The notes below the pieces were generated by a model. It was not told where the DNA came from. It worked only from the letters and a program-made list of their open reading frames with translations, and searched no databases. 64,000 nucleotides of DNA from Escherichia coli (lineage in GTDB: Bacteria; Pseudomonadota; Gammaproteobacteria; Enterobacterales; Enterobacteriaceae), in assembly GCF_044324785.1 (NCBI RefSeq), contig NZ_CP172127.1. One strand, given 5' to 3'. The translations under genes and the position numbers were made by a program. The stretch's first letter is position 1. Every line of letters starts with the position of its first letter. Positions 3,725 through 58,997 of the stretch are shown here, piece after piece.

Positions 3725-3830
3725 ATGTGTTCTTCGGTAGCGATTACGGTAGTGAACGGACCTGCTGTCTGAATGGCATCGATCCGCAAGCGTATCGGCG
3801 CCATATTCTGAGCGTACTACTGAAATGGCT
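3725..3830 (+). pseudogene. IS66-family transposase C-terminal remnant
   Basis: Translation FFGSDYGSER..CCLNGIDPQAYRRHILSVLLKW matches the C-terminus of the IS66 transposase at 57024-57383 (FFGSDHGGERGALLYGLIGTCRLNGIDPEAYLRHILSVLPEW) with a frame disruption; approximate bounds. Confidence 0.5.
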
Positions 3831-3957
3831 AATGGCAGTAAAGAGAGACTTTACGTATATTTGCATAAAGCAGGATTTTACGACTAGTCAACATTCTTTA
3901 TAATTCTTCAGGTTCAGAGTATCTGACATATAGGGTTATGTATTGGGGAGACATTTA

Positions 3958-4659
3958 ATGTTTGGCCATCTGTTACGATACTTTAGTTTCTGTAAAAAAG
4001 ATTTATTAGTATTTCATCCTGAATCTGATTACTCAGATAATTTACATAAAGCCTTCTCTTTTACAAAAAGGCTAGGATTTAATGAAGAATGGAATGGGGT
4101 CACAAAAAACAAAGAATATGATTATCAGGATGTATTCAGTCATGTCTGTCTGCAGTCTGGTGTGACAGACTTTTCCGCTTCAGCAGGACAATGCTTAAAG
4201 TGGAGTCATTATTTTCAGCCATATTTTGAGAATATCCTTGAATGTCGGGTATGGGTTACCGTTGGACAACTCTGGAAACAGGAACGATTTATTTACAATC
4301 CGTCAGTTGCGGATTTTCAGCGCTGGTCTGAAAAAGGGATTCAGCCTGAAGATTTTAGACATCACTCGGGGTTTAACTTTCATGCGTGGTTGACGACGGA
4401 AAATGGTGTGATTGTGGATGTTTCCTTTATGAGTACGTTATCGCGGCGATTACCTGAACACCTGAGTGAAGTCAGTGGAAGTGTGATTATTGGCACGCCA
4501 GAGACGGTTCTTCCTGAGTATAAATATGTTCCCATGATTGTCGGTCAGAGGATTGTTGAGAAAATAGAAAAACGCTCTTTCATTGGTTTTCTGGCGCACG
4601 ACGATATTGATTTATATACAGTACCTGCAATCTTGGTTCCGGTATGGAAAGAATGTTAA
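3958..4659 (+). CDS. Hypothetical protein, no recognisable family; orphan cargo gene
   Basis: ORF 3943-4659; likely ATG at 3958 preceded by GGGGAG; AT-rich upstream region; flanked by IS66 and IS21 remnants. Confidence 0.5.
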   Translation: MFGHLLRYFSFCKKDLLVFHPESDYSDNLHKAFSFTKRLGFNEEWNGVTKNKEYDYQDVFSHVCLQSGVTDFSASAGQCLKWSHYFQPYFENILECRVWVTVGQLWKQERFIYNPSVADFQRWSEKGIQPEDFRHHSGFNFHAWLTTENGVIVDVSFMSTLSRRLPEHLSEVSGSVIIGTPETVLPEYKYVPMIVGQRIVEKIEKRSFIGFLAHDDIDLYTVPAILVPVWKEC

Positions 4660-4978
4660 AGCACGGAATAACACTATGCACTTACCGCTTTCCGGAACTC
4701 AGCTTGTTACCTGAGCGGTCAACAGAGCAGTCTTTCAGTGTCTGCACTTGGTTGCCACTAAACCGGAGTCATTTATCAGAAGTATATGTTCATGGAAGGA
4801 TATTGTCAGCGCCAGTGATATAAGACGGTAATGAGGATAGCCACCCCGCATGGGTTTCCTCAACACTGGTCACTGTGACAAGCGCACCATGATCGTCTTT
4901 GTATCGCTGATTGACTTTCGATAATAGAACATCTTCTGACATAAATTTTAGTACGGTAACAATTAACTAAATTTTCAT

Positions 4979-5245
4979 GTGGTAGCACTGAATCAGGAGA
5001 CTGCGTTTCCTGATGTGTGCTTCTGCAGCCGTTACCGGATACAGACTTCGATACCAGTTACTTCGACATCCGCCATGTGTCCTGGGACCCGCTATAACGA
5101 AGTTGGAGGTAATCAGTACAGCGTTCCCGAAATGCTGTGTGGTCAGCCAGTCTCGATACGAATATCGCTGAACGATGAGTTGCGGATCTACAGTAATGAG
5201 AAACTGGTGGCCTCACATCGCCTCTGCTCAGTGTCGTCTGGCTAG
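4979..5245 (+). pseudogene. Possible IS21-family IstA C-terminal fragment
   Basis: Segment YSVPEMLCGQPVSIRISLNDELRIYSNEKLVASHRL resembles IstA C-terminal region; weak, by eye. Confidence 0.3.
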
Positions 5246-5389
5246 CAGATAGTACCGGAACCTCACGCCCCGCTCTGGCAGCAGATCAGTCAGGTGGAAC
5301 ATCGACCACTGAGTGCCTATGAGGAGCTGTTGTGATGCATGTGTCAACGACGGATGAAAGTGGCTCTTCCGCAACCTGGGTGGAGATTT

Positions 5390-6816
5390 TCATGCCAGTG
5401 GACTCATTACCCTCTGCCTGAGTAGTTCAAATCCTGCTCGACCATACATCTGGCGTTTCAGCATCTTCAGGCGATTTACATGACCTTCGACAACACCATT
5501 ACTCCAGTGACTACTGATTGCCTCACATATAGCTGCAGCATCAGCTTCCATCCCCGCCGCCACGCGCCGAAATTCTGCTGAACCGCTTTCGTGGACTCGA
5601 GTGAACCAACTGCTTAGCTGTGATTTATTTTGGGTTTTCAGAATACGGTAGAACTCGAGTGCCAGTTGCTGCGCTATTTTCAGCTCAGGTTCTTTTTCAC
5701 ACATCAGACTAATAAATCGGGAAGCATAATTTTCTTCATCCCTGGTTATTCTCCAGGGCATCAACCAGCGGCTTACCCGGGACACTGAAGGAAGTCTGAC
5801 GGCAGTAGTAACCGGTGGGTTCCAGCCTTTACGCCATTTGGCAACCGCATCCCTGACGATGGTTTCACTGCCTGTAAATCCCCGGGCCACCATTTCCCGC
5901 CATATCCGGCTGGCGTTATAATTACCACTTTCTCGTTGCTCTTTTAACCACTCCCTCCATGGGTCCAGAAGCCCTCGCTTTGGCGGTCGGGTTGACATTT
6001 CAGGGAATGTTCCTGAACGCACCCAGCGACTGACTGTCACACGCGACAGGCCTGTAATACGGGATATTTCCCTGAAACTACATCCCTTGTTATGCAGGGC
6101 CATAACCTCTGTCCAACGCTGATGCCGTTTTTTGCGGGTTTGTTGTTTTAGGCGTTCCGGACGACGGAGCGATGCTGCAGGCACAGATGGTTCTGGATCA
6201 GGTGATTTCTTTGGTGACAACTCACTGGCAACAAGACGTATCAGAGGTATATGTCTATACATCATTCGTTCAGGCGCATCGCCAATATTTTTTAGCAGAT
6301 GCCATCGATCGGCCACCTGTCTGGCCTGAGGTGCACCTTCACGTGCTGCTGTCGCATAGACTCCACTGCGATCACGCGAGACAATCTGTATTTCCGGATA
6401 TTTTCTGAACCAGGTCGCCAGCGTACGCTGATCACGGCCGGGAAGCAGGACGAGGGGACGGTGAGTATCAAGATTGACGATTAACGTACCGTAACGGTGG
6501 CCCCGATGCCACGCCCACTCATCAATACCGACATGAGGCGAGCCTGACTGTTTCGTCTCCGGGGTATTGATAACCCTGCGAAGGAGAGTATCAGCACTGC
6601 AACGGAGACCCACTGCCGTTGCTGCCCGTTTCCCGGCCTCACCTCCGGCGATTAATCCCAGTTGACGTTGTAAATTTTGTAACGCCTGTGAAGACTGTTG
6701 GTGTGAACCGGCGAAGGGAGCAAGCGACTCGGCAAAAATTTTACGTGAACAAGCCGGGTTACGGCAGTACCAGTGGCGGACAGAAAATACAAGCCATAGC
6801 GTATGTCCTGAGCAGG
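5390..6816 (-). pseudogene. ISL3-family transposase, N-terminus interrupted by IS2
   Basis: C-terminal SNGVVEGHVNRLKMLKRQMYGRAGFELLRQRV signature; RHWYCRNPAC zinc knuckle and VGIDEWAWHRGHRYGTLIV DDE region; first 13 codons of track ORF 5390-6853 are encoded by the IS2 right end. Confidence 0.6.
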
Positions 6817-6827
6817 TGGATTTGCCC

Positions 6828-7733
6828 CTATATTTCCAGACACCTGTTATCACTTAACCCATTACTGGCCTGCTGCCGCAGATATTCCCGTGGCGAGCGA
6901 TAACCCAGTGCACTATGCGGATGCCATTCGTTATAATGCTCGAACGCCTCTGCAAGGTTCTTTGCTGCCGTTAACCCGTCTGGTTTAGGCATGATACTGA
7001 TGTAGTCACGCTTTATCGTTTTCACGAAGCTCTCTGCTATGCCGTTACTCTCCGGACTCCGCACCGCCGTGTTCTTCGGTTCAAGCCCCAACATCCGGGC
7101 AAACTGCCGTGTTTCATTAGCCCGGTAGCATGAACCATTATCCGTCAGCCACTCTACTGGAGACGCCGGAAGCTCGTTGCCGAAGCGGCGTTCCACCGCT
7201 CCTGGCATGACGTCCTGTACTGTTTCACTGTCGAAGCCGCCCGTAGTGACTGCCCAGTGCAGTGCCTCACGGTCACAGCAGTCCAGCGCGAACGTGACTC
7301 GCAGTTTTTCTCCGTTATCACAGCGGAACTCGAACCCGTCAGAGCACCATCGTTGATTGCTTTCTTTCACGGCCACTTTGCCAGTATGTGCCCGTTTCGA
7401 TGGCGGTACAGCGGTTTTTCGCTCAAGCAACAGCGCATTCTGGCGCATGATCCGGTAAACACGTTTGGCATTGATCGCAGGCATACCATCAAGTTCGGCC
7501 TGTCTGCGAAGCAGCGCCCATACCCGACGATAACCATACGTGGGCAGCTCTCCGATAACATGGTGTATACGGAGAAGCACATCCGTATCATCTGAGTGAC
7601 GGCTGCGGCGACCATCTTTCCAGTCATCGGTTCGTCTGAGAATTACGTGCAACTGCGCACGCGACACCCGGAGACAACGGCTGACTAAGCTTACTCCCCA
7701 TCCCCGGGCAATAAGGGCGCGTGCGCTATCCAC
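6828..7733 (-). CDS. insD: IS2 transposase OrfB (InsD)
   Basis: 301-aa ORF with rve-type DDE integrase core; recognised as IS2 InsD from memory. Confidence 0.9.
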
Positions 7734-8056
7734 TTTTTTGCACGCCCGTATTCAACGGCTTCTTTAAGGAGTTCATTTTCCATCGTTTTTTTGCCGAGCA
7801 GGCGCTGGAGTTCTTTAATCTGCTTCATGGCAGCAGCAAGTTCAGAGGCAGGAACGACCTGCTCTCCTGCGGCCACAGCAGTAAGACTTCCCTCCTGGTA
7901 TTGCTTGCGCCAGAGAAATAACTGGCTGGCTGCCACACCGTGTTGCCGGGCAACAAGGGAGACCGTCATTCCCGGTTCAAAACTCTGCTGAACAATAGCG
8001 ATCTTTTCCTGTGTAGTACGCCGTCTGCGTTTCTCCGGTCCTAAGACATCAATCAT
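7691..8056 (-). CDS. insC: IS2 OrfA (InsC)
   Basis: Starts [27 protein letters not shown] protein overlapping orfB as in IS2. Confidence 0.85.
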
Positions 8057-8613
8057 CTGCTCTCCAATGACTAGTCTAAAAACTAGTATTAAGACTATCA
8101 CTTATTTAAGTGATATTGGTTGTCTGGAGATTCATGGGGCCAGTCTAATGTGTATCCGGGATGGATGTTTACCAGAACCTTCTCTGTTCCAGTGTGTGGA
8201 GTTTTACAGAAGAGGCGACTGTATGCAACTCTTGCCCCGTAACTGTCTTTATTCGTTTCTCCACACTCTCCGGACATTGTAAATTCCAGATGTGTGGCAG
8301 TGTGTTTTTCGTAAATCGTACACAATGCATTTTTACACGGAGTTCAGCCAGTCGTATCACTGAGAGTTTTTTTCTGATTTGTACCACTCATGCAGCAGTG
8401 ATAAGGAGATATTTTCTCTGTCGGGCCAGCAGGGGCGGTGCCACCTGTTTAGTTTTCTTATGTTTGGTAAAAGAGAGGCTAAAATATATACAACAGGCGT
8501 ATGTAATGATTCATATTGTTAATCATTAACCAGTAAGAATTAATGTAGTGGATCGGTAATTCAGGACACCTCGAAATCCTGTTAATGTTAAAACAGTGAA
8601 AATGGGGTGATGC

Positions 8614-10868: not shown

Positions 10869-12131
10869 CTATTTTAATGGATTGTTAATCTTTGCATATT
10901 CAAACGGGCTGATACATTGTTCTCTGTTCGCACCCAGAAAATCTGCCCACCACTGTAGCATCAGTCGACGTTCTTCCAGATGTTCTGCTTTATGGATATA
11001 TGCAGCACGTACACCATTACGCTCCTGATGGCTCATCTGACGTTCCACAGCATCGCGGGACCACAAACCTGATTCAATCAATGCACTGCACGCCATCGCC
11101 CGGAATCCATGACCACAGACTTCCTGGGTTGTGTCATATCCCATCACCCTCAGGGCTTTATTTACAGTATTTTCACTGATCGGTTTACGCGGGTCATGTG
11201 CTCCCGTAAAGATCAGACCATTTTCACCAGCCCATGTCTGTAGTTCTGTCAGTATGGCTACAGCCTGTTTGCTGAGTGGCACAAGATGTGGTGTTCGCAT
11301 CTTGGAGCCCCGGTGTGAGTATTTTACGCCTGGCAGAGGTTCGCGTTCGGCTGGAATAGTCCACATGGCATTGTCAATATCAATTTCAGACCAGCGGGAA
11401 TATCTGAGTTCACTGGAACGAATAAAAACCAGTAAATTCAGCATAACTGCCAGTCGGGTGACAGGCTGACCTTTATAACCGTCAATACGCGACAGAAGTT
11501 CAGGCAGGCGTGAAAGATCCAGAGCAGGGCGATGCTGGCGTTTTACCGTGGTCAATGCACCAGCCATATCCAGAGCCGGGTTATATCTGATGATGCCAGA
11601 CTGTACGGCATAACGCATTACAGCAGATATTCTTTGCTGCAGACGACTGGCGATTTCATAAATTTGTTTTGCTTCTGCAGCACGAACAGGGATAAGCAGG
11701 TCCGGGGTATTGAGTGTTGTGATATCCCGGTTGCCGATAAAGGGGAAAACGTGTGTCTCGAGGCTTTTGATTACTTTATCGCTGTGTGATTGTGCCCATT
11801 GTTTATTACTGGCATGCCAGCGTCGTGCAATATGTTCAAAAGAGAGTTGTAAATCAGGGACTACTTTTTTAGCTCTTTTTTGTTCGCAAGGGTCAATCCC
11901 CTCTGAAATCAGTTTTCGGGCCTCATCCCGTTTTGTACGAGCTTCGGAGAGAGAAACTTCTGGATATACACCAAGTGCCAGAGTCTTCTCCTTACCCAGA
12001 ATACGATAACGGAGACGCCAGTAACGGGAACCATTAGGATGAACCAGCAGGAACATGCCAGCCCCGTCAGTGAGTTTATAAGCCTTGTCAGTGTGCTTTG
12101 CAGCCCGGATTTTTGCGTCAGTCAGTGCCAT
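10869..12131 (-). CDS. P4-type tyrosine integrase (CP4-like island integrase)
   Basis: 420-aa ORF; N-terminal LTDAKIRAAK..GMFLLVHPNGSRYWRLRYR arm-binding domain and C-terminal catalytic region (HGFRAM...RAAY). Confidence 0.9.
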   Translation of the reverse strand: MALTDAKIRAAKHTDKAYKLTDGAGMFLLVHPNGSRYWRLRYRILGKEKTLALGVYPEVSLSEARTKRDEARKLISEGIDPCEQKRAKKVVPDLQLSFEHIARRWHASNKQWAQSHSDKVIKSLETHVFPFIGNRDITTLNTPDLLIPVRAAEAKQIYEIASRLQQRISAVMRYAVQSGIIRYNPALDMAGALTTVKRQHRPALDLSRLPELLSRIDGYKGQPVTRLAVMLNLLVFIRSSELRYSRWSEIDIDNAMWTIPAEREPLPGVKYSHRGSKMRTPHLVPLSKQAVAILTELQTWAGENGLIFTGAHDPRKPISENTVNKALRVMGYDTTQEVCGHGFRAMACSALIESGLWSRDAVERQMSHQERNGVRAAYIHKAEHLEERRLMLQWWADFLGANREQCISPFEYAKINNPLK

Positions 12132-57023: not shown

Positions 57024-58616
57024 TTATTTATTGGTGAGTACTACGTTCCATGGCAGGAGTTCGTCAACACAGTTGGAGGGCCATTCCGGCAGTACGCTCA
57101 GAATATGGCGCAGATACGCTTCCGGATCGATACCGTTCAGACGGCAGGTGCCGATCAGCCCGTACAGCAGTGCTCCACGCTCGCCGCCGTGATCGCTACC
57201 GAAGAACACGTAATTTTTCTTTCCGAGACAGACTGCACGAAGCGCTCTTTCCGCTGTGTTATTGTCCGCTTCTGCCAAACCATCATCACTGTAATAACAG
57301 AGGGCGTCCCACTGATTCAGTACATAGCTGAACGCTTCGCCCAGTCTGGATTTTTTCGACAGCGTGCCATTCTTCTCCACCATCCATTCATGCAGCGACG
57401 TCAGTAACGCTTTGCTTCGCTGCTGCCTGGCTGCAAGACGCTCTGACTCTGGTAATCCCCGTATTTCATCCTCGATGGCGTACAGTTCACTGATTCACTT
57501 CAGGGCTTCTTCTGCCGTCGCACTTTTGCTGCTGATGTATACATCGTGGATTTTTCGCCGGGCATGGGCCCAGCACGCAACTTCTGTCAGTGCACCACCT
57601 TCACGTTCTGCACTGAACAACCTGTCGTAACCTGTGAACGCATCCGCCTGCAGGATACCCCGGAAGGGGCGAAGGTGTTGCTCCGGGTGTTTCCCCTGCC
57701 GGTTCGGCGAGTACGCGAACCAGACCGCTGGAGGAGATGACGAACCCACATTGCGATCATCCCGGACATACGTCCAGATACGCCCTGTTTTCGCCTTTTT
57801 CTGACCCGGTGCCAGTACCTTTACCGGTGTGTCATCAGTGTGAACCTTGCGGGTGTTCATTACATAACGGTACAGGGCATCATTCACCGGTGTCATTAAC
57901 TGGCAGCACGCGTCAACCCAGTTGGAGAGTAAGGCCCGGCTCAGTTCGACACCCTGGCGGGCAAAGATTTCACTCTGACGATACAGTGGCAGATGTTCGC
58001 AGTATTTTCCCGTTAACACGCGGGCAAGTAATCCGGGGCCCGCGATACCACGCTCTATCGGGCGGGACGGCGCCGGTGCTTCAACAATACAGTCACATTT
58101 TGTACAGGCTTTTTTTACCCGTTCTGTGCGGATCACTTTCAGGGCACTGCTCACCAGTTCCAGCTGTTCAGCGCTGACTTCCCCCAGATAATCCAGCTCA
58201 CCGCCACACTCCGGGCAACAGCTTTCTTCTGGCTCCAGGCGGTGTATTTCACGGGGAAGGTGTGCCGGTAACGGACGACGATGGCGCGACTGTCGCAACT
58301 GGCGGGGAACCTGAGGATCGTCTTCCCGCCCACTGTAACGATCGCTGTCCTGTTCACGTTGTTTCAGCAGAGCCTCAGCCAGTTCAACTTCACGACGCAG
58401 TTTTTCAGAACGGGTACCGAACAGCATCCGGTGCAGTTTTTCTATCTGAGCCCGCAGATGTTCTATTTCCCGTTCATCTTCTTCGATCTTTTCTTCGGCA
58501 CGTGCCAGTGCAGAGCGCAGGAAGGCCTCCGTCTCTTCAACCAGACTCAGTTGCTGGTCTTTCTGACGGAGCTGGCTTTCCAGTTCTGCAATGCGAATGA
58601 GGTATTTCTGACTCAT
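57024..58616 (-). pseudogene. IS66-family transposase (OrfC) with in-frame TGA nonsense codon
   Basis: Track ORFs 57495-58616 and 57024-57383 share one frame; TGA at 57495-57497; reading through gives ...TAEEALK*ISELYAIEDEIRGL... Confidence 0.75.
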
Positions 58617-58646
58617 GGCCGTTTTTATAATGCGGCCAGGCGTTTT

Positions 58647-58997
58647 TTACAACATTGTCAGTGCGTTAAGGCGGAATGTTTTTGGCTGACGCCAGTCCAG
58701 CTTATCGAGGAGCATTGCCAGTTGCGAGCGGGTAATGGATACCTTGCCGTCACGTACCGCAGGCCAGATAAACTGGCCTTCCTCCAGGCGTTTGGTGAAC
58801 AGGCACAGACCATCAGCATCAGCCCAAAGAATTTTGACGGTGTCACCCCGTCGGCCACGGAAGATAAACAGGTGACCGGAGAAGGGATTATCATTCAGCA
58901 CATGTTGTACCTGTTCTCCCAGTCCGTTGAAGGATTTACGCATATCGGTAACGCCGGCAACGAGCCAGATACGGGTACCTGATGGGAGTGAGATCAT
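58647..58997 (-). CDS. IS66-family OrfB
   Basis: 116-aa ORF; LPSGTRIWLVAGVTDMRKSFNGLG. Confidence 0.8.
   Translation of the reverse strand: MISLPSGTRIWLVAGVTDMRKSFNGLGEQVQHVLNDNPFSGHLFIFRGRRGDTVKILWADADGLCLFTKRLEEGQFIWPAVRDGKVSITRSQLAMLLDKLDWRQPKTFRLNALTML

What the first reader, a model, noticed from the sequence alone, without database searches (positions are those of the whole stretch)
3958..4659. AT-rich orphan gene flanked by IS66 and IS21 remnants
A 233-aa ORF with a good SD sits alone between an IS66 transposase remnant (3725-3830) and an IS21-like remnant (4979-5245), preceded by a markedly AT-rich promoter region. I find no recognisable motif. An IS-bracketed single gene of atypical composition is a common signature of recently acquired single-gene defence or effector cargo.
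Basis: partly seen in the sequence, partly recalled or inferred. Interest (0 to 1): 0.55.

Follow-up and report, generated by a model that had tools for sequence, protein, structure and literature searches.

The report
Unnamed cysteine-hydrolase gene on mobile islands
The lone AT-rich gene is real and conserved. It encodes a predicted cysteine enzyme (protease or deamidase type) from a protein family no database has named, which travels on genomic islands and conjugative plasmids, often beside anti-phage systems, so it is a reasonable but untested candidate immunity or conflict gene.

Summary
Window 3958-4659 (+) is an intact 233-aa gene with a good ribosome-binding site and a promoter-like site. 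Its GC is 39.5% against 47.3% for the window. It lies between an IS66 TnpC remnant (3727-3830) and an IS21 istA remnant (5022-5341). A frameshifted DUF4222 gene on the other strand also sits in the gap.

The gene is not an IS fragment. It equals RefSeq WP_000466879.1 and occurs in 66 of 5426 complete E. coli genomes. It is under purifying selection (dN/dS 0.07-0.18).

Relatives are stand-alone cargo of integrative islands, ICEs and conjugative plasmids. Six of about 12 close-subfamily contexts have a PADLOC-recognised defence gene within about 5 kb (Old, type III CBASS, a TIR protein, SIR2, restriction-modification with PrrC). One relative is fused to a HEPN domain.

Best reading: a stand-alone thiol hydrolase acting as a mobile-element conflict gene, most likely in defence. 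Function is untested.

The parts
3727..3830 (+). Remnant of the C-terminus of an IS66-family transposase (TnpC). It precedes the gene in every E. coli context examined.
   Evidence: BLASTP gives 44% identity to residues 458-500 of a 510-aa IS66 TnpC, E 7e-11. DNA matches to IS66-family transposase genes on plasmids. RefSeq marks it as a partial pseudogene.
3877..3904 (+). Sigma-70 promoter-like site TTTACG-16 nt-TATAAT in the 34% GC upstream region.
   Evidence: Consensus scan, 10 of 12 matches. Nearly identical between the two E. coli allele classes; one C/T difference, at window 3896, lies in the spacer. Consensus match only, not evidence of function.
3945..3951 (+). Shine-Dalgarno sequence GGGGAGA, 7 nt before the ATG.
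   Evidence: Read directly from the sequence. Identical in the other alleles.
3958..4659 (+). Intact 233-aa gene (identical to RefSeq WP_000466879.1), a predicted cytoplasmic Cys-His-Asp thiol hydrolase with a transglutaminase/papain-like fold.
4192..4194 (+). Codon of Cys79, the predicted nucleophile, in the motif S-A-G-Q-C-L-K-W.
   Evidence: Invariant in 77 of 77 family members. Sits at the N-terminus of helix 79-94 in the model.
4381..4383 (+). Codon of His142, the predicted general base, in the motif N-x-H-A-W-L-T.
   Evidence: Invariant in 77 of 77. First residue of strand 142-147.
4417..4419 (+). Codon of Asp154, the predicted third member of the triad.
   Evidence: Asp in 68 and Glu in 9 of 77 members. 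Lies on strand 152-154, next to the His strand.
4735..4942 (-). Convergent DUF4222 gene, a pseudogene in this window. It is a neighbour, not a functional partner.
   Evidence: RefSeq annotates DUF4222, intact in strains ZJ3920 and RM10042. An 11-nt deletion after window 4851. No homolog beside the Providencia copy.
4803..4838 (.). 36-nt match to IS21 terminal repeats, inside the DUF4222 region.
   Evidence: blastn gives 97% identity to sequences at both ends of an IS21 copy.
5022..5341 (+). 3' remnant of IS21-family istA (residues 288-390 of 390), frameshifted.
   Evidence: 92% nucleotide identity, and tblastn in two frames. RefSeq annotates a 'Mu transposase domain-containing protein' pseudogene.

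Best explanation
Window 3958-4659 encodes a functional, horizontally acquired, stand-alone enzyme. It is a soluble cytoplasmic thiol hydrolase of the transglutaminase/papain-like superfamily. Cys79 sits at the N-terminus of a helix, His142 and Asp154 on two adjacent strands, and a conserved N-terminal helical segment carries Tyr25, Phe/Leu29 and Ala32. It founds a family that no database has named. Family members ride as single-gene cargo in the variable regions of integrative islands, ICEs and conjugative plasmids. The most likely role is a conflict enzyme that covalently modifies a protein target by peptide or isopeptide cleavage or by glutamine deamidation, as its closest structural relatives do. 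The most likely direction is defence of the host and element against phages or competing elements. Shown: the gene is real, is under selection, has this fold and invariant triad, is mobile-element cargo, and recurs beside defence genes. Inferred: catalytic activity, the type of substrate, and the defence role.
For: Real gene: two E. coli allele classes differ by 11-13 synonymous and 4 non-synonymous changes (dN/dS 0.08-0.09), and between genera dN/dS is 0.07-0.18. It is annotated as a CDS in RefSeq. It is present in 66 of 5426 complete E. coli genomes, always on the chromosome.

Family: 387 clusters at E<=1e-3 and 114 at E<=1e-10. Cys79, His142, Trp144, Thr146, Gly103 and Pro192 are invariant, and position 154 is always Asp or Glu.

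Context of relatives: immediately downstream of a P2-Old-type nuclease, with PD-Lambda-1 nearby, in Kluyvera, Klebsiella aerogenes and Erwinia psidii. 43 nt downstream of a complete type III CBASS in two Pseudomonas genomes, with the shared DNA block ending 20 nt after the homolog. Next to a ThsB-like TIR protein, a PDC-S65 SIR2 protein and a type IIG restriction-modification enzyme. In E. coli strains ZJ3920 and CV839-06, about 1.6 kb (ZJ3920) and about 5.7 kb (CV839-06) upstream of hsdRMS; PrrC was confirmed in ZJ3920. One relative is fused to a HEPN domain.

Stand-alone: no conserved neighbour across contexts, and the adjacent DUF4222 gene is dead here while the ORF is intact.
Confidence: 0.4

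Rival explanations
1. Counter-defence or establishment factor of the mobile element. The hydrolase cleaves or deamidates a host protein (for example a defence or SOS component) to help the island, ICE or plasmid survive in a new host.
For: Distant family members are common on conjugative plasmids (159 records, 130 of them conjugative). Some lie in ICE arrays of small same-strand genes. ArdA lies 650 nt from the Providencia copy. An orphan N6/N4 methylase and DUF2958 lie near another copy.
Against: In IncI-gamma/K plasmids the gene follows nikB, on the opposite side of oriT from the ardA region; by standard IncI1 transfer polarity (my knowledge, not tested) that makes it one of the last regions to enter the recipient. 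The close subfamily sits inside chromosomal defence islands rather than near oriT. No match in phage genomes or PHROGs. The HEPN fusion is more typical of defence or toxin proteins.
Confidence: 0.2
2. A non-conflict enzyme carried as ordinary cargo. It would act on a small molecule or perform a housekeeping protein modification (amidase, acyltransferase, N-terminal amidohydrolase type) with no role in phage or plasmid conflict.
Against: There are no conserved metabolic neighbours. Its location is consistently in variable hot-spot regions beside defence or toxin-antitoxin genes. It is rare and patchy in E. coli (1.2% of genomes), as is typical of conflict genes.
Confidence: 0.15
3. Accessory or regulatory subunit of the neighbouring nuclease systems (Old, or CBASS with NucC), for example a protease that activates or restrains them.
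For: It is the last gene, in the same orientation, of the conserved Old block in three genera and of the CBASS block in two Pseudomonas genomes. In both cases the shared DNA ends just after it.
Against: The partners differ between contexts, and in E. coli there is no partner at all. In Erwinia psidii the homolog is broken into three ORF fragments while a full-length Old ORF is retained next to it. P2 Old and type III CBASS are complete systems without such a gene (established knowledge).
Confidence: 0.08
4. Secreted toxin or effector: a T3SS effector like SseI, a T6SS amidase, or an orphan contact-dependent inhibition (CDI) toxin.
For: The best structural match is the T3SS effector SseI, and PMT-C3 also matches. 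Some copies lie near T6SS genes or downstream of CdiA-type genes.
Against: There is no adjacent immunity gene, no PAAR, VgrG, Rhs or VENN-type delivery domain, and the gene has its own start codon and Shine-Dalgarno sequence. No hydrophobic signal peptide is visible at the N-terminus (by inspection). The family occurs in free-living genera (Duganella, Thiomicrorhabdus, cyanobacteria) and on plasmids with no adjacent secretion-system genes.
Confidence: 0.05
5. A spurious ORF or a fragment of an IS-encoded gene.
For: It is embedded in IS debris and is AT-rich.
Against: It has homologs in many genera, low dN/dS, a confident fold and an invariant catalytic triad. The IS66 similarity ends at 3830, 128 nt before the start codon.
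Confidence: 0.01

Closest known systems
SseI (SrfH) catalytic domain and Pasteurella multocida toxin C3 domain (Cys-His-Asp glutamine deamidases; PDB 4g29, 2ebf)
   Different: Only 12% identity over 110 aligned residues and no sequence-profile match. Cys-His spacing is 63 residues here. This protein has an extra conserved N-terminal helical segment and no T3SS translocation domain. The family occurs in bacteria and plasmids without such secretion systems. That SseI and PMT deamidate G-alpha proteins is from the literature and was not tested here.
Bacterial transglutaminase-like cysteine proteases and Transglut_core proteins (LapG 4fgo, TglA 9crn, PeiW 8jx4, protein glutaminase 2zk9/8z3i)
   Different: No Pfam Transglut_core or other clan match for any of 77 members. 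It appears to lack a signal peptide, so it would be cytoplasmic rather than periplasmic or secreted. It is a stand-alone 186-245 aa protein.
Single-gene anti-phage systems of defence islands (P2 Old, PD-Lambda-1, PDC-S65)
   Same: Same kind of genomic niche: variable cargo next to integrases, often directly adjacent to these very systems.
   Different: No homology to any PADLOC model. It is a thiol hydrolase rather than a nuclease or NADase. No phenotype is known.
Atu2299 (PDB 2hly), a structural-genomics protein of unknown function
   Different: 11% identity, and its function is also unknown, so it gives no functional lead.

Membership tests
Transglutaminase/papain-like cysteine hydrolase superfamily | Alpha/beta core with the nucleophilic Cys at the N-terminus of a helix packed on a beta-sheet | tested here: met
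Transglutaminase/papain-like cysteine hydrolase superfamily | Conserved Cys-His-Asp(Glu/Asn) triad in that linear order | tested here: met
   Cys79 77/77, His142 77/77, position 154 Asp 68 and Glu 9 of 77. The triad is also kept in the IncI plasmid relative and in the HEPN fusion.
Transglutaminase/papain-like cysteine hydrolase superfamily | Sequence-profile match to a named family of the clan (e.g. Pfam Transglut_core, Peptidase_C39, NLPC_P60) | tested here: not met
   No Pfam hit for the query even at E<=10, and none for 77 members at E<=0.001. No NCBIfam hit. No PDB sequence hit.
Transglutaminase/papain-like cysteine hydrolase superfamily | Thiol-dependent hydrolase or transferase activity | not testable with these tools
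   Needs purified protein and Cys79/His142 mutants.
SseI / PMT-C3 deamidase family | Recognisable sequence homology to the deamidase domain | tested here: not met
SseI / PMT-C3 deamidase family | Delivery module (T3SS N-terminal translocation domain or toxin receptor-binding/translocation domains) | tested here: not met
   The 233-aa protein is a single compact fold. The family occurs in non-T3SS taxa and on plasmids.
Known or candidate anti-phage defence systems (PADLOC-DB 2.0) | Match to a defence protein model | tested here: not met
   0 families for the query at E<=1, and 0 for 10 diverse relatives at E<=0.1.
Known or candidate anti-phage defence systems (PADLOC-DB 2.0) | Recurrent location next to known defence genes in different genomes | tested here: met
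   Old and PD-Lambda-1; type III CBASS and a ThsB-like TIR protein; PDC-S65 SIR2, type IIG restriction-modification, and PrrC with type I restriction-modification. That is 6 of about 12 contexts for the close subfamily. The sample is small and no background control was run.
Known or candidate anti-phage defence systems (PADLOC-DB 2.0) | Confers phage resistance when expressed | not testable with these tools
   Requires plaque assays.
IS66 / IS21 encoded genes | Homology of the ORF to a transposase or IS accessory protein | tested here: not met
   IS66 similarity is confined to 3727-3830 and IS21 similarity to 4803-4838 and 5022-5341. Homologs in other genera have no flanking IS.
Polymorphic toxin / T6SS / CDI effector-immunity pairs | Conserved adjacent immunity gene and N-terminal trafficking domain | tested here: not met
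   Clustering of neighbours across 12 loci finds no conserved partner. The downstream DUF4222 gene is a pseudogene here and is unrelated to the Providencia neighbour.

The most novel reading that the evidence does not exclude
The gene founds a new, widespread single-protein immune (or counter-immune) system of mobile elements. It would be a stand-alone SseI-like cysteine deamidase or protease that blocks phage or rival-plasmid propagation, or disarms host defence, by covalently modifying one specific protein target. That chemistry (a stand-alone thiol hydrolase or deamidase) matched none of the PADLOC models searched.
Probability: 0.3. Interest if true: 0.7.

Novelty: new variant of a known kind. 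Interest (0 to 1): 0.5.

Why it matters
If it proves active in conflict, this would add a thiol-hydrolase or deamidase mechanism to bacterial immunity or counter-immunity, carried by a 0.7-kb gene that is easy to test. The family also includes unannotated genes on clinically important plasmids: IncI-gamma/K plasmids of E. coli and Salmonella, and IncHI1B/FIB megaplasmids of Klebsiella pneumoniae. It gives a name and a testable prediction (Cys79/His142/Asp154) to at least 387 clusters now labelled 'hypothetical protein'. If it proves inert in such assays, it remains an ordinary piece of island cargo.

Tried and rejected
- **Database searches of the query:** Pfam, NCBIfam, PADLOC and PHROGs gave no significant match. 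The same was true for 77 or 10 relatives.
- **PDB sequence search with both profiles:** only chance-level hits.
- **tblastn against phage genomes and plasmids with the E. coli protein:** no match. Only the distant 190-aa subfamily is found on plasmids.
- **IMG/VR scan:** one hit, a 98% identical E. coli-type island called viral, which was uninformative.
- **A second 233-aa ORF at window 58281-58982:** checked as a possible paralog and found unrelated.
- **DUF4222 as a partner or antitoxin:** rejected. It is a pseudogene here and is not conserved in Providencia.
- **A role in the IncI conjugation backbone:** rejected. In canonical IncI1 pESBL, trbC directly follows nikB, so the gene is variable cargo there (PMC4288162). 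The I-complex TraDIS paper does not mention it in its main text.
- **Literature searches** for the accession, transglutaminase-like or papain-like proteins, or deamidases in phage defence: nothing relevant.
- **Active-site distances in the model:** could not be measured, because model coordinates are not exposed.
- **First genome-collection scan with the 77-sequence alignment:** failed because no sufficiently conserved stretch was available. It was repeated with the 9-sequence alignment.

Full report
**1. The observation**

Window 3958-4659 (+) is an open reading frame of 233 codons starting at ATG. A GGGGAG Shine-Dalgarno sequence lies 7 nt upstream, and a TTTACG-16-TATAAT promoter-like site is at 3877-3904. 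The ORF has 39.5% GC (GC3 35%) and the 127 nt upstream have 33.9%, against 47.3% for the window. Only 10% of 700-nt windows are as AT-rich.

On the left, 3727-3830 is a scrap of the C-terminus of an IS66 TnpC (44% identity to residues 458-500 of 510, E 7e-11). On the right, 5022-5341 is the frameshifted 3' end of an IS21-family istA (92% nucleotide identity). A 36-nt IS21 terminal-repeat match lies at 4803-4838.

It is intact in other strains but carries an 11-nt deletion here. The description is otherwise correct.

**2. It is a real gene, not IS debris**

The ORF is identical to RefSeq WP_000466879.1, annotated 'hypothetical protein'. It occurs in 66 of 5426 complete E. coli genomes, always on the chromosome, in two allele classes (>=99% and about 98% identity). 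The two classes differ by 11-13 synonymous and 4 non-synonymous changes (dN/dS 0.08-0.09). Comparisons with Kluyvera, Klebsiella aerogenes and Providencia orthologs (62-69% amino-acid identity) give dN/dS 0.07-0.18. The promoter-like site and ribosome-binding site are conserved between the allele classes.

**3. A sizeable family without a name**

A profile search of 1.84 billion representative proteins found 387 clusters at E<=1e-3 and 114 at E<=1e-10. Foldseek against AFDB50 found 147 matches at E<=1e-3. All but three of the 50 matches listed are 'uncharacterized protein'; the three exceptions carry evidently spurious names ('Tail protein from Bacteriophage', 'TmRNA'). They come from Proteobacteria, with occasional others such as a cyanobacterium. 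None of 77 aligned members hits any Pfam family. Neither the query nor 10 diverse relatives hit NCBIfam, PADLOC or PHROGs. Literature searches found no description.

**4. What the protein is**

In the 77-sequence alignment, Cys79, Gly103, His142, Trp144, Thr146 and Pro192 are invariant. Position 154 is Asp in 68 sequences and Glu in 9. Tyr25, Ala32 and Thr101 are nearly invariant.

With this alignment AlphaFold gives a confident model (pLDDT 93.4, pTM 0.89). Cys79 is the first residue of helix 79-94, His142 the first residue of strand 142-147, and Asp154 lies on the next strand, 152-154. This is the arrangement that defines the papain/transglutaminase-like fold.

- LapG, protein glutaminase, TglA, PMT-C3, PeiW, NTAQ1 and arylamine N-acetyltransferases

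The similarity is distant (10-17% identity), so it fixes the catalytic chemistry class but not the substrate. By inspection the N-terminus has no hydrophobic signal sequence, so I infer a cytoplasmic enzyme.

**5. Where the family lives**

In the window and its closest E. coli relatives, the gene sits in a CP4-type integrative island. Upstream are an integrase, an AlpA-like HTH gene, and inovirus-Gp2/YagK/YfjJ genes. Downstream is variable cargo:
- hsdRMS in strains ZJ3920 and CV839-06, with an AAA-ATPase gene between hsdM and hsdS that matches PADLOC PrrC in ZJ3920 at E 1.7e-136
- a two-partner secretion system in strain RM10042
- IS debris here

In other genera:
- **Kluyvera, K. aerogenes, Erwinia psidii:** directly downstream of a P2-Old-type nuclease (PADLOC Old, E 1.4e-77), with PD-Lambda-1 nearby and an integrase next door.
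- **Two Pseudomonas genomes:** 43 nt after NucC of a complete CapP/CapH type III CBASS. The shared DNA block ends 20 nt after the homolog.
- **Paraburkholderia:** beside a ThsB-like TIR protein.
- **Pseudomonas ICEs:** beside a PDC-S65 SIR2 protein.
- **Pluralibacter:** 3 kb from a type IIG restriction enzyme.
- **A conjugative element:** among Fic/VbhA and Phd modules.
- **Providencia and Collimonas:** downstream of CdiA-type genes.
- **A recombinase-in-trio element:** a relative fused to a C-terminal HEPN domain.

The shorter, more distant subfamily (about 190 aa) aligns to the family profile with hhalign probability 99.9% and E 3e-37, and keeps the triad. It is found on 159 plasmids, 130 of them conjugative. 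In IncI-gamma/K plasmids it lies 26 nt after nikB. In K. pneumoniae IncHI1B/FIB megaplasmids it lies between traG and a helicase. It also occurs in ICE arrays of small genes. Canonical IncI1 plasmids lack it (PMC4288162), so it is cargo rather than backbone.

The E. coli protein found no homolog in phage genomes by tblastn, and neither it nor 10 diverse relatives matched PHROGs at E<=0.01. No neighbour is conserved across contexts.

**6. Interpretation**

The best-supported reading is a stand-alone thiol hydrolase carried as conflict cargo by non-phage mobile elements.

Points in favour of a defence role:
- adjacency of the close subfamily to six different recognised defence systems
- the HEPN fusion
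- rarity and patchiness in E. coli

Points in favour of a counter-defence or establishment role:
- the plasmid and ICE locations
- ArdA and methylase neighbours

However, the position after nikB is on the opposite side of oriT from the ardA region; by standard IncI1 transfer polarity (my knowledge, not tested) it would enter the recipient late. That weakens the establishment idea.

Other readings are weaker:
- **Accessory role for Old or CBASS.** This is unlikely, because partners vary, E. coli has no partner, and in E. psidii the homolog is fragmented while the adjacent Old ORF is full-length.
- **Secreted effector or toxin.** This is unlikely, because there is no immunity gene or delivery domain.

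My confidence levels are:

| Claim | Confidence |
|---|---|
| Functional gene | about 0.97 |
| Cys-His-Asp enzyme of this fold | about 0.85 |
| Mobile-element conflict role of either direction | about 0.6 |
| Defence specifically | about 0.35-0.4 |

**7. Novelty and score**

The fold and chemistry are known. The family, its stand-alone architecture and its niche have not been described in any library or paper I could search. I rate it a new variant of a known kind, with moderate interest (0.5). It is a clean, cheap experimental candidate, but nothing in the evidence would astonish a specialist yet.

Noticed in passing
window 4735-4942 (minus strand): The DUF4222 gene convergent to the ORF is inactivated by an 11-nt deletion after position 4851, while the ORF and its promoter region remain intact. 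In strains ZJ3920 and RM10042 the DUF4222 gene is whole.
   Followed up: yes
window 4803-4838: A 36-nt stretch 97% identical to the terminal repeats at both ends of an IS21 copy lies inside the DUF4222 region, about 180 nt before the istA remnant. It may be a solo IS21 end.
   Followed up: partly
window 5390-8101: The ISEc38 (ISL3-family) transposase ORF is shorter here (487 aa) than in strain 746 (539 aa). It is abutted by IS3-family orfA/orfB genes (7691-8101 and 6828-7733), which suggests one IS inserted into another.
   Followed up: no
window 1-24000: The region appears to be two CP4-type islands in tandem. The first carries an Hha-like gene, inovirus-Gp2/YagK/YfjJ genes and two zinc-ribbon genes (1763-2574). 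A second integrase (10869-12131, minus strand) is followed by what the closest match (strain VTB96959v, 81% coverage, 97.2% identity) annotates as ParDE, CbtA/CbeA, RadC, an antirestriction gene, DUF932 and a YeeP-type GTPase. No complete E. coli genome in the collection matches this arrangement exactly.
   Followed up: partly
L013 5275-10656 and L014 5271-10656 (Pseudomonas): A 5.4-kb block is shared at 92.7% identity between two Pseudomonas genomes with unrelated flanks. It carries CapP, CapH, a CD-NTase, HORMA, TRIP13, NucC and the family homolog, and ends 20 nt after the homolog's stop codon. The homolog therefore travels with a type III CBASS as one unit.
   Followed up: partly
L037 9019-9591 (E. 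coli IncI-gamma/K plasmid Plm, NC_019097.1): A 190-aa family member (WP_000332081.1) sits 26 nt downstream of the relaxase gene nikB, followed by a bacteriocin-type ABC exporter, HlyD and CPBP genes. Canonical IncI1 plasmids have trbC at this position instead.
   Followed up: partly
L030 8001-9494 (protein P0162): In a relative of 497 aa, the thiol-hydrolase domain is fused to a C-terminal HEPN domain (Pfam E 7e-5). It lies just after three tandem tyrosine recombinases (a recombinase-in-trio element).
   Followed up: partly
L021 14410-21415 (E. coli ZJ3920): A classic hsdR-hsdS-prrC-hsdM locus (PADLOC PrrC, E 1.7e-136) lies 1.6 kb downstream of the gene in the less degraded version of the island.
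   Followed up: yes
L016 9995-10688 (Erwinia psidii): The ortholog is broken into three ORF fragments, while a full-length Old nuclease ORF is retained next to it. This is a natural loss that argues against an obligate Old-homolog pair.
   Followed up: partly
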